Shown: piece after piece, positions 30,526-32,935 of the stretch
Layout: each line of letters starts with the position of its first letter
How positions within the stretch are numbered: position 1 is the stretch's first letter
Assembly (NCBI RefSeq): GCF_009914755.1
Contig: NC_060936.1
Length of the DNA stretch: 64,000 nt
Direction: 5' to 3' (one strand)
DNA from: the human T2T-CHM13v2.0 reference genome, Homo sapiens
Notes under the pieces: generated by a model
Seen by the model: the letters and a program-made list of their open reading frames with translations, nothing else
Told to the model about the DNA's origin: nothing
Database searches by the model: none
Position numbers and translations under genes: made by a program

Positions 30526-30607
30526 ATACAATCCAGGTTAAGGAATTGATATTCATTAACAAAAATAATTCTTATATAGAAAGATGTTAGCTGTCATACA
30601 TATGTCC

Positions 30608-30920
30608 TTATTTATTTATTTATTTATTTATTTTTTGAGATGGAGTCTTGCTCTGTCACCCAGGCTGGAGTACAGTGGTGTGATCTCGGCTCACTGCAAC
30701 CTCCACCTCCCCGGTTCAAGCAATTCTCCTGCCTCAGCCTCCCAAGTAGCTGGAATTACAGGTGTGTGCCACCATGCCCAGCTAATTTTTTGGTATGTTG
30801 AGTGGAGACAGGGTTTTACCACGTTGGCTAGGCTGGTCTCAAACTCCTGACCTCAGGTGATCCACCTGCCTTGGCCTCCCAAAGTGCCGGGATTACAAGC
30901 GTAAGCCACCGCACCCGGCC
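30608..30920 (-). mobile_element. AluS
   Basis: Antisense dimer with (TTTA)n tail. Confidence 0.95.
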
Positions 30921-30948
30921 TATTTTATTTTTTAATCAGCAATTTACA

Positions 30949-31544
30949 GGCCAGGCACCGTGGCTCATGCCTGTAATCCCAGAACTTTGGGAGACCAAGG
31001 CAGGTGGATCACTTGAGGTTAAGAGTTCAAGACCAGCCTGGCCAACATGTTGAAACCCCGTCTCTACTAAAAATACAAAACTAGCTGGGCATGGTGGCAC
31101 ATGCCTGTAATCCCAGTTACTTGGGAGCCTGAGGCAGGAGAAAGGCTTGAACCTGGGAAGTGCAGGTTGCAGTGAGCCGAGATTGCACTATTGCATTCCA
31201 GCCTGTGTGACACAGTGAGACTCCATCTCAAAAAAAAAAAAAAAAATCAGACTGCACACGGTGGCTCACTCCTATAATCCCAGCACTTTGGGAGGCTGAG
31301 GTGGGCGGATCATGAGGTCAGGAGTTCGAGATAAGCCTGGCTAACACGGTGAAACCCTGTCTCTACTGAAAATACAAAAATTAGCCGGGTGTGGTGGTGG
31401 GCACCTGTAATCCCAGCTACTTGGGAGGCTGAGGCAGGAGAATTGCTAGATTCCGGGAGGCAGAGGTTGCAGTGAGCCAAGATCTCGCCACTGCACTCCA
31501 GCCTGGGTGACAGAGCAAGACTCCATCTCGGGGAAAAAAAAAAA
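30949..31544 (+). mobile_element. Two tandem Alus (30949-31246, 31250-31544)
   Basis: Pair bounded by repeat aatcagcaatttacag; second Alu inserted at the tail of the first. Confidence 0.92.
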
Positions 31545-32160
31545 TCAGCAATTTACAGATAAGGCAATGGGAGGGCCAGAGAGGGTGCCTCTCACTCCCA
31601 TAGTCTCTGAGCGTGATAACGGTAGCGCCAGACCAGCACACAGGCTTCATGATTTTCAGCAGCATGTTCTTCCCATCCATGCGTATTTCTGCACCCTCAT
31701 TTTAATCCTAAATTCTTTGAAGCCAATCTGTGAATAATAACAAGGGAGTCTGGTTAGACTGGTCCTGTTAATGGCTAGAGTGCTGGAAACCAAAGCTGTG
31801 CATTGTGACCTAGTATTTCTCAATGAGCTCGTTCCAGCATAGAGCAGGAGGATCAGTTGTCCTGACAACATCTGTGGATAGGTAGGGGTAAAGAGGGGCT
31901 GAGGATGATTACAGATATGCGAACAATTTCACAAAACCTACCTGTACCGACCTCTCCAAAACTGTCTGCAATGGACTCTTGAGGCCTTTTTCATTTTGGA
32001 TTTGTAGGAGCTGATTATAAAAGTTCTCTTCTTTCTTAGCTAGATTCTCTAGATGCTAAATCCCCATGGCATTCTCTCTAAGCAGGAAAATAAACCAAGG
32101 ACAACTTGTTTCTCAGAACCACCTGAGCCCTCAGGCACTTCACACAAATATCAGCTACAT

Positions 32161-32697
32161 GGCTGGGTGCAGTGGCTCACACTTGTAATCCCAACATTTT
32201 GGGAGGCTGAGGCAGAAGGATCACTTGAGGCCAGCAGTTTGACAGCAGCCTGAGCAATATAGTGAGACACTGTCTCTATTTTAATGTAATATTAAAACAT
32301 TGTTTAAAAAATTAGAATTAACAAACAAACAAAAACGTGCAAAAAAATATATGCACGATGACCAGAGCTTCCCTTAAAAAGAAGGAAGCTTGGGCTGAGT
32401 GCAGTGGCTCACGCCTTTAATCCCAGCACTCTGGGAGGCCAAGGCAGGAGGATCAATTGAGGCCAGGAGTTTGAGACCAGCCTGGACAACATGGTAAAAC
32501 CCTGTCTGTACAAAATATACAAAAATTAGCCGGGCATGGTGGCATGTGCCTGTAATCCCAGCTACTCAGGAGGCTGAGATGGGAGGATGGCTTGAGCCTG
32601 GGAGGCTGAGGCTGCAGTGAACCAAGATTGTGCCATTGCATTCCAGCCTAGGCAACAGAGCAGGATCCTGTGGGGAAAAAAATAAAAATAAAAAAAG
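32161..32697 (+). mobile_element. FLAM (about 32161-32285) and AluJ (about 32393-32697)
   Basis: Sense monomer and dimer. Confidence 0.88.
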
Positions 32698-32935
32698 AAG
32701 GTTGTAAAGTGAGGAACTTGCCCCAACTTCTTTTTTGGGTTGATTTCTCTTGCCCCCAGATTGTGGGGATGTGGACCATTGGTAAAAAGGGATTAACAAA
32801 CTCAAGATCTGAGACCTCTTTTCCCAATCCTTCCTGGGTTTTTTCTGCTGAAATGGAAACCCCCAGCTGTCAGCCCCTTCCATCACGACCTGCCCCCTTC
32901 ATCCTCCTTCCCGCCTGGGATTTTCACAAGGATAT

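What the first reader, a model, noticed from the sequence alone, without database searches (positions are those of the whole stretch)
30526..32935. Minor-spliceosome (U12) intron with rare AT-AT ends
Seen: exon B ends TA|ATATCCTTG; a perfect TTCCTTAAC lies 11 nt before the only 3' junction that restores Y-YPSG, and that junction is ...tgtAT|C rather than AC. Knowledge: RTATCCTT plus TTCCTTAAC close to the 3' end defines U12 introns; AT-AC and GT-AG are usual and AT-AT is a rare variant. If unspliced, TA+A forms an immediate TAA stop, so retention would switch off the protein. Inference: either a natural AT-AT intron or an AC>AT decay mutation, possibly a family-wide ancestral U12 intron at the Y|YPSG position.
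Basis: partly seen in the sequence, partly recalled or inferred. Interest (0 to 1): 0.8.

Follow-up and report, generated by a model that had tools for sequence, protein, structure and literature searches.

The report
Minor-spliceosome intron relic in dead gene
This is a real minor-spliceosome (U12-type) intron with unusual AT-AT ends, but it sits in the remains of a C3orf20-like gene that is broken in humans and now annotated as two non-coding RNAs, so it is a modest annotation curiosity and not a protein switch.

Summary
On the minus strand, exon B (32936-33160) ends TA|ATATCCTTG. TTCCTTAAC (30537-30545) lies 11 nt before the ...gtAT|C junction at 30526/30525. Only that junction restores the conserved DGSSLT-Y-YPSG.

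The U12 reading is well supported. All three human paralogues found by a Pfam FAM194 scan of the genome (C3orf20, ERICH6, ERICH6B) have a phase-2 intron at the same codon. Each has a GTATCC-type donor and a CCTTAAC-like branch site 9-11 nt before the 3' end. The C3orf20 intron is already published as U12-type (GT-AG in human, AT-AG in mouse).

The host is not a live gene. It is the human relic of a vertebrate "C3orf20-like" gene found as models of 470-960 residues in many mammals, reptiles and amphibians. The human copy has three nonsense codons and no detectable N-terminal coding exons.

RefSeq's two lncRNA models, LOC107984545 and LOC105369917, are its 5' and 3' halves. They break within 26 and 6 nt of this intron.

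Two things remain untested: whether AT-AT is spliced, and whether the 3' T is ancestral or decay. No RNA data or other mammalian genomes were available.

Verdict: a new member of a known kind, of low to moderate interest.

The parts
32936..33160 (-). Exon B of the C3orf20-like relic; open frame ending ...DGSSLT + TA (phase 2)
   Evidence: 67% identical to Tupaia P0004 residues 281-359. The acceptor cag| lies at 33161. RefSeq's LOC107984545 last exon covers 32962-33160.
32927..32935 (-). U12-type 5' splice site ATATCCTTG
   Evidence: It is homologous to TA|GTATCCTTT in C3orf20 and TT|GTATCCTC in ERICH6, and to CA|GTATCCAC in ERICH6B.
30526..32935 (-). The intron, 2410 nt, termini AT...AT; contains Alu-like repeats (masked 30602-31554 and 32370-32704)
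   Evidence: the masking is from the hub annotation.
30537..30545 (-). Branch-site motif TTCCTTAAC, ending 11 nt before the 3' junction
   Evidence: The paralogues have CCTGAAC (11 nt), CCTTATC (9 nt) and CCTTAAC (10 nt) at the same place.
30526..30527 (-). 3' terminal dinucleotide AT, where all three paralogues have AG
30376..30525 (-). Exon C, (Y)YPSGHLAVCQ...; Pfam FAM194 positions 28-80; ends AG|gtacat
   Evidence: (PF14977, E 5.4e-7, 29.6 bits against a cut-off of 27), (87.5% identical to Tupaia; 42 of 48 identical). The first exon of RefSeq's LOC105369917 starts at 30519.
41033..41132 (-). Upstream relic coding exon (GWIFQHPYSKWEILKWK...)
   Evidence: 65-74% identical to the orthologues; canonical aag|...|gtagga.
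61777..61849 (-). Relic first coding exon (...GPIYFFDQ)
61582..61665 (-). Relic second exon. No frame is open, and similarity to the orthologues appears to switch frame
   Evidence: (stops in all three frames), compared with the orthologue N-termini. The frameshift reading is by eye and was not aligned formally.
7510..7630 (-). Relic exon following exon C in the orthologues; in-frame TAG at 7603-7605 where the orthologues have Q (MFNQDGG)
2293..2427 (-). Relic exon (VNRFITVKISG...), frame open
283..375 (-). Relic exon with an in-frame TGA at 304-306

Best explanation
Window 30526-32935 (minus strand) is the ancestral U12-type (minor-spliceosome) intron of a FAM194-family gene. That gene is a vertebrate paralogue of C3orf20 that other species' annotations call 'C3orf20-like' or 'C3orf20 homolog'. 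The intron splits a Tyr codon (TA|C) between ...DGSSLT and YPSG. In human the host gene is a transcribed unitary pseudogene. RefSeq models its 5' half as lncRNA LOC107984545 and its 3' half as lncRNA LOC105369917. The intron keeps a consensus U12 donor (ATATCCTTG) and a perfect branch site (TTCCTTAAC) 11 nt from the 3' junction, but it ends in AT rather than AC or AG. Inferred, not shown: the minor spliceosome probably still removes it, because AT-AN pairs are reported to be competent. On this reading the two lncRNA models are one transcription unit that the pipeline could not join across a non-canonical AT-AT junction. The intron has no protein-level role in human, because the reading frame is broken downstream and upstream.
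For: (1) The signals sit exactly at the exon borders. The joint chance is about 1.6e-8 from the window's own motif frequencies. (2) Exon C matches Pfam FAM194 above the curated cut-off. (3) A whole-genome FAM194 scan finds only three other loci. I assign these to C3orf20, ERICH6 and ERICH6B by position and recalled gene maps. All three have a phase-2 intron at the same codon, with donors GTATCCTTT, GTATCCTC and GTATCCAC. Their branch-like motifs CCTGAAC, CCTTATC and CCTTAAC lie 11, 9 and 10 nt before AG. (4) Sheth et al. 2006 (PMC1557818, Table 3, read) list 4930590J08Rik, the mouse C3orf20, as a U12 intron: GT-AG in human and AT-AG in mouse. The TOGA2 preprint (legend of Suppl. Fig. 9C) describes it as TA|AT...CAG|C forming Tyr, which is the same codon split. 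(5) 46 related proteins were retrieved. Exon C is 42 of 48 identical to Tupaia but only 18 of 50 identical to human C3orf20. (6) Pseudogene status rests on in-frame TAG 7603-7605, TGA 304-306 and TAG -14099..-14101 at conserved positions. About 200 N-terminal residues of the orthologues find no match at E<1 in the 20 kb where they should lie. (7) 7 of the 11 in-window lncRNA exons coincide with ancestral coding exons. The two models stop 26 nt and 6 nt inside exons B and C. No AATAAA or ATTAAA precedes the 32962 end. (8) Sheth 2006, section 23, reports AT-AN pairs as competent for U12 splicing. It also notes that many non-canonical U12 introns are mis-mapped by automated pipelines.
Against: There is no transcript evidence for the AT|...AT|C junction. 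RefSeq does not join the two models, which is also what two independent transcripts, or a dead intron, would give. The terminal pair is not canonical. All three paralogues end in AG, so the 3' T may be a post-inactivation mutation that weakens or abolishes splicing. The lncRNA model takes three exons (21846-22031, 17374-17517, 13589-13838) that are not ancestral, so splicing at the locus has already drifted. Orthology to the retrieved proteins rests on similarity only; synteny could not be checked. No quantitative U12 score (intronIC) was computed. The paralogue gene names are my assignment from position, not a tool output.
Confidence: 0.75

Rival explanations
1. Dead relic. The intron was U12-type while the gene was alive. 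The 3' AG or AC then mutated to AT after inactivation and the intron is no longer removed. LOC107984545 and LOC105369917 are then truly separate transcripts that end and start on either side of it.
For: RefSeq keeps the models apart (hub annotation). 3 of 3 paralogues end in AG, so T is derived within the family. The gene is already under no coding constraint. AT-AT is among the less frequent U12 pairs: 6 human cases in Sheth 2006 Table 2.
Against: The model ends fall inside the ancestral exons, 26 nt and 6 nt from the junction, and not at recognisable signals. There is no poly(A) hexamer before 32962. A TATATAA-like string lies about 59 nt upstream of 30519, which is not the spacing I recall for a TATA box. 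The donor and branch site are intact, and AT-AN pairs are reported to be competent.
Confidence: 0.22
2. One reading: a live, unannotated FAM194 protein-coding gene whose output is gated by retention of a minor intron, because retention gives an immediate TAA.
For: The frame is open across exons 41033-41132, B and C and across the junction. Unspliced read-through gives TAA. One rodent model (P0001, 348 aa) ends exactly at this point.
Against: A TAG comes 9 codons into the next ancestral exon. Alternatively a TGA comes 9 codons into the next annotated exon. Two further nonsense codons lie downstream. Exon 61582-61665 has no open frame. About 200 N-terminal residues are undetectable. Most of the FAM194 domain would be lost: the chr12 locus matches only profile positions 26-87 of 202.
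Confidence: 0.02
3. Chance co-occurrence of two short motifs near ORF ends, with a different GT-AG intron actually used.
For: Each motif alone occurs at the chance rate in the window.
Against: The positions are exact at both borders (joint about 1.6e-8). The homologous introns in 3 of 3 paralogues carry the same signals. No GT-AG pair restores the conserved junction residues. The next AG, 20 nt downstream, shifts the frame.
Confidence: 0.01

Closest known systems
C3orf20 (mouse 4930590J08Rik) intron 5, a catalogued U12-type intron
   Same: Same family (FAM194), same codon split (TA|...|C = Tyr before YPSG), same phase, and the same donor and branch-site architecture. In this genome C3orf20 reads TA|GTATCCTTT ... 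CCTGAAC, then 11 nt, then AG|C. The published entries are GT-AG in human and AT-AG in mouse.
   Different: It is a different locus (chr3 against chr12) and a live gene. It ends in AG, not AT. The chr12 copy has the better branch-site match and an A at +1, like the mouse C3orf20 intron.
Known non-canonical AT-AT U12-type introns (for example human ERCC5 and IK in Sheth et al. 2006, Table 3)
   Same: RTATCCTT donor plus a U12 branch site with an AT 3' terminus. This subtype often switches with AT-AC, AT-AG or AT-AA between human and mouse. AT-AN pairs are reported to be competent.
   Different: Those introns are in expressed coding genes with RefSeq support. This one is in a pseudogene and has no junction evidence.
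ERICH6 and ERICH6B introns at the homologous position
   Same: A phase-2 intron before YPSG. The donors are GTATCCTC and GTATCCAC. The motifs CCTTATC and CCTTAAC lie 9 and 10 nt before AG.
   Different: They have GT-AG ends and weaker donor matches. The ERICH6B intron is only 185 nt. I found no paper naming these two as minor introns in the full-text searches. Database supplements could not be opened, so they may well be listed there.
Transcribed unitary pseudogenes annotated as lncRNAs
   Same: The ancestral exons are still spliced into non-coding models. Full-length models are annotated in other species, and there is no functional copy at the human locus.
   Different: Here the locus is split into two gene models exactly at a non-canonical minor intron.

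Membership tests
U12-type (minor-spliceosome) intron | 5' splice site matching /RTATCCTT directly at the exon end | tested here: met
ATATCCTTG at 32935-32927(-).
U12-type (minor-spliceosome) intron | Branch-site motif TCCTTAAC-like close (about 10-20 nt) to the 3' junction | tested here: met
   TTCCTTAAC at 30545-30537(-), with 11 nt between the motif end and the junction. The distance range is recalled.
U12-type (minor-spliceosome) intron | Canonical terminal pair AT-AC or GT-AG | tested here: not met
   The termini are AT-AT. This is not disqualifying: Sheth 2006 Table 2 counts 33 human U12 introns with other pairs, 6 of them AT-AT.
U12-type (minor-spliceosome) intron | Homologous intron classed as U12 in relatives | tested here: met
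   C3orf20 is published as U12. U12-like signals are seen in 3 of 3 human paralogues at the same codon.
U12-type (minor-spliceosome) intron | Quantitative classification (intronIC/PWM score) above threshold | not tested
   intronIC and its matrices were not available. Only consensus matching was done.
U12-type (minor-spliceosome) intron | Actual removal at these sites, dependent on U11/U12/U6atac | not testable with these tools
FAM194 (Pfam PF14977) protein family | Match to the Pfam profile above the gathering score | tested here: met
   Exon C alone scores 29.6 bits against a cut-off of 27, E 5.4e-7. Only profile positions 26-87 of 202 are recovered at this locus in the genome scan. Later exons match orthologue proteins by tblastn.
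Unitary pseudogene | Disabling lesions in the ancestral reading frame | tested here: met
   TAG 7603-7605, TGA 304-306 and TAG -14099..-14101. The N-terminal exons are not detected.
Unitary pseudogene | Full-length orthologue models in other species, and no other copy in the same genome | tested here: met
   46 related proteins were retrieved, 29 of them with the junction intact. Exon B finds only itself in the human genome.
Unitary pseudogene | Orthology confirmed by conserved synteny (between VEZT and METAP2) | not testable with these tools
   No other vertebrate genomes are held. Orthology is inferred from 42 of 48 identity to Tupaia against 18 of 50 to human C3orf20.

The most novel reading that the evidence does not exclude
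AT-AT (or another non-canonical AT-AN pair) is the long-standing working state of this intron in the living C3orf20-like genes of mammals. It is also still spliced by the minor spliceosome in the human pseudogene. That would explain two things at once. First, RefSeq splits the human locus into two lncRNA genes. Second, 17 of 46 retrieved orthologue models end at, start at, skip around or distort exactly this junction. The human transcript would then be a minor-intron-containing non-coding RNA left by a gene that was lost in anthropoid primates.
Probability: 0.3. Interest if true: 0.45.

Novelty: new member of a known kind. Interest (0 to 1): 0.3.

Why it matters
It adds one unlisted locus to the short catalogue of non-canonical (AT-AT) U12-type introns. 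It also shows that the U12 intron at the Y|YPSG codon is shared by all four human FAM194 loci, so it predates the family's duplications.

In practice it suggests that two RefSeq lncRNA genes are the halves of one unitary pseudogene of a conserved vertebrate gene. It also suggests that annotation pipelines break gene models at this kind of junction, in human and apparently in many other species.

It does not reveal a new mechanism, and in human it has no protein consequence.

Tried and rejected
- **Retrocopy search.** I searched the human genome with the exon B protein, hoping for retrocopies or paralogous exons that would record the spliced junction. Only the locus itself was found.
- **ERICH6B donor.** A pattern search for the ERICH6B donor in 30 kb upstream gave only chance hits. 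The real donor was 185 nt upstream and was found by tblastn.
- **N-terminal exons.** A sensitive tblastn for the missing N-terminal exons gave nothing credible.
- **Literature.** Full-text searches for ERICH6B + minor intron, ERICH6 + U12 and FAM194 + U12 returned 0 papers each. A search for LOC105369917 / LOC107984545 / C3orf20-like / C3orf20 homolog also returned 0 papers.
- **Closed resources.** I therefore could not check whether minor-intron databases list ERICH6, ERICH6B or this locus.
- **Own promoter for LOC105369917.** I considered a promoter at 30519. Only a TATA-like string about 59 nt upstream was seen, so I did not adopt this.
- **Alternative 3' sites.** An AT 5 nt upstream of the junction, and an AC and an AG 16 and 20 nt downstream, were rejected on distance and frame.
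- **Not possible here.** I had no other mammalian genomes and no RNA-seq.

Full report
**What is in the sequence**

The feature lies on the minus strand. An open frame (32935..33204) ends ...GGC TCC TCT CTG ACC TA and is followed directly by ATATCCTTG. Read unspliced, this gives TAA.

About 2.4 kb downstream lies the only TTCCTTAAC of the window (30537-30545). It is followed by 11 nt ending ...gtAT. Then comes C TAT CCT TCT GGG, which completes TA+C = Tyr and continues YPSGHLAVCQ.... The intron defined this way is 2410 nt. It contains Alu-like sequence (masked stretches in the hub annotation).

Counted over the whole window, neither motif is enriched: RTATCCTT 4 found against 4.9 expected, TTCCTTAAC 1 against 0.8. 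The argument therefore rests on position. From the window's own motif frequencies, I estimated the chance that the donor motif sits at the one fixed exon end and that a CCTTAAC ends 8-20 nt before the one fixed exon start. That chance is about 1.6e-8.

Alternative 3' ends near the branch site fit worse. An AT 5 nt upstream is too close to the branch. The next AC and AG lie 16 and 20 nt downstream, and both shift the frame.

**What gene this is**

Exon C (30376-30525) matches Pfam FAM194 (PF14977) above the curated cut-off, at 29.6 bits and E 5.4e-7.

A scan of the whole assembly with that profile finds this locus and three others: chr3:153.42 Mb, chr13:44.77 Mb and chr3:14.72 Mb. I take these to be ERICH6, ERICH6B and C3orf20.

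Exon B used as a protein query finds only itself in the human genome. In the protein database it finds models named "C3orf20-like" or "C3orf20 homolog" in Tupaia, Molossus and Thomomys (740-857 aa). It also finds a 348-aa model in Dipodomys. These hits are 67-73% identical.

A wider search with the Tupaia protein gave 46 proteins. They come from carnivores, bats, several rodents, a mole, ruminants, echidna, reptiles, amphibians and salmonids. The only primate was Nycticebus. No anthropoid, Mus or Rattus entry appeared. Absence from a capped search is weak evidence.

Human exon C is 42 of 48 identical to the Tupaia protein but only 18 of 50 identical to human C3orf20. The chr12 locus is therefore a separate, old paralogue whose closest human relative is C3orf20.

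**State of the human copy**

tblastn of the orthologues against 124 kb around the window maps relic exons at these places:
- 61774-61851
- 41032-41133
- exon B and exon C
- 7510-7630
- 2293-2427
- 283-375
- four places downstream of the window, between -14000 and -34892

Spliced along the ancestral exons, the frame stays open from 41132 through the AT...AT junction. It then hits TAG (7603-7605) at a conserved Gln, nine codons into the next exon. If the next annotated lncRNA exon is used instead, a stop also follows after nine codons.

Further in-frame stops lie at 304-306 (TGA) and at -14099..-14101 (TAG), both inside conserved blocks. Exon 61582-61665 has stops in all three frames. The roughly 200 N-terminal residues of the orthologues find no credible match in the 20 kb where they should be encoded.

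This is a unitary pseudogene in this assembly. All other relic introns seen in the window have GT-AG ends.

**Relation to the annotation**

Seven of the eleven in-window exons of the two RefSeq lncRNA models coincide with ancestral coding exons. LOC107984545 covers the 5' half and ends at 32962, which is 26 nt short of the donor. LOC105369917 covers the 3' half and begins at 30519, which is 6 nt past the acceptor. No poly(A) hexamer precedes 32962.

I infer that this is one transcription unit that the pipeline could not join across a non-canonical junction. Sheth et al. 2006 note that many non-canonical U12 introns are mis-mapped by automated pipelines (section 23). This inference is not shown; two independent transcripts would look the same.

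**Is it a U12 intron, and is it ancestral?**

The homologous introns of the paralogues settle most of this. All three interrupt the same codon in phase 2, directly before (C/T) TAT CC:

| Gene | Donor | Branch-like motif | nt from motif to AG | Intron length |
|---|---|---|---|---|
| C3orf20 | ...DGSSFV TA\|GTATCCTTT | CCTGAAC | 11 | about 9.4 kb |
| ERICH6 | TT\|GTATCCTC | CCTTATC | 9 | about 4.5 kb |
| ERICH6B | CA\|GTATCCAC | CCTTAAC | 10 | 185 nt |

The C3orf20 case is in print.
- Sheth et al. 2006 list 4930590J08Rik among U12 introns that switch subtype: GT-AG in human and AT-AG in mouse (Table 3).
- The TOGA2 preprint calls C3orf20 intron 5 an AT-AG U12 intron, with TA|AT...CAG|C forming Tyr (supplementary figure legend).

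At the protein level, 29 of the 46 relatives carry ...DGSx(x)-Y-YPS(G/E) across the junction.

**The AT-AT ends**

The 5' A matches the state of the mouse C3orf20 intron. The 3' T is unique among the four human loci, since the others end in G.

Sheth et al. count 6 human and 6 mouse AT-AT U12 introns (Table 2). They show frequent switching between AT-AT and AT-AC, AT-AG or AT-AA in human-mouse pairs. They also report that AT-AN pairs were experimentally competent.

So AT-AT is a known, rare and workable subtype. Whether the T arose while the gene was alive or after it died cannot be decided here, because no other vertebrate genome was available.

One indirect hint comes from the 46 retrieved models, of which 17 are abnormal at exactly this junction:
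- 1 ends at the junction.
- 4 start at or just after it.
- 10 skip both flanking exons, an in-frame loss of 375 nt.
- 2 are distorted around it.

This would be expected if the intron has ends that predictors do not accept in many species. However, some of these are labelled as isoforms and could reflect real exon skipping, so I give this little weight.

**Mechanism and verdict**

- Shown: the motif anatomy, the homology of the intron position, family membership, the pseudogene lesions, and the coincidence with the model break.
- Inferred: that the minor spliceosome still removes the intron at AT|...AT|C, and that the two lncRNAs are one unit.

The finding is a new member of a known kind: a non-canonical U12-type intron, here in a transcribed unitary pseudogene. 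Interest is low to moderate, mainly for annotation and for minor-intron evolution in the FAM194 family.

**Limits**

- No intronIC score was computed.
- There was no RNA evidence and no orthologue DNA.
- The statement that ERICH6, ERICH6B and this locus are not described as minor-intron genes rests only on full-text searches that returned nothing.

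Noticed in passing
window 283-61849 and about 35 kb further downstream on the minus strand (to about -34892): RefSeq lncRNAs LOC107984545 and LOC105369917 together trace one unitary pseudogene of a conserved vertebrate C3orf20-like (FAM194) gene. 7 of 11 in-window lncRNA exons are ancestral coding exons. Three lncRNA exons (21846-22031, 17374-17517, 13589-13838) and 5916-6016 have no counterpart in the orthologue proteins.
   Followed up: yes
proteins P0001-P0046: 17 of 46 retrieved orthologue models are abnormal at exactly the U12 junction. 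1 ends there, 4 start there, 10 skip both flanking exons in frame, and 2 are distorted. This suggests systematic mis-annotation, or real skipping of the exon pair, across species.
   Followed up: partly
G000:C13:44771379-44771563 (locus L005): The homologous ERICH6B intron is only 185 nt. It has donor GTATCCAC and a CCTTAAC 10 nt before AG, so it is a very short candidate U12-type intron with a weakened donor.
   Followed up: partly
one search hit list: Among the 46 relatives the only primate is a slow loris model that lacks exons B and C. No anthropoid, mouse or rat entries appeared, which hints at independent losses of this gene.
   Followed up: no
window 41133-61582: The exon or exons encoding about 200 N-terminal residues of the orthologues are undetectable in human. 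They are either deleted or decayed beyond tblastn reach.
   Followed up: partly
window 30572-30578 (-): A TATATAA-like string lies about 59 nt upstream of the annotated start of LOC105369917, inside the 3' part of the intron next to an Alu tail. The spacing does not fit what I recall for a TATA box, so it is probably chance.
   Followed up: no
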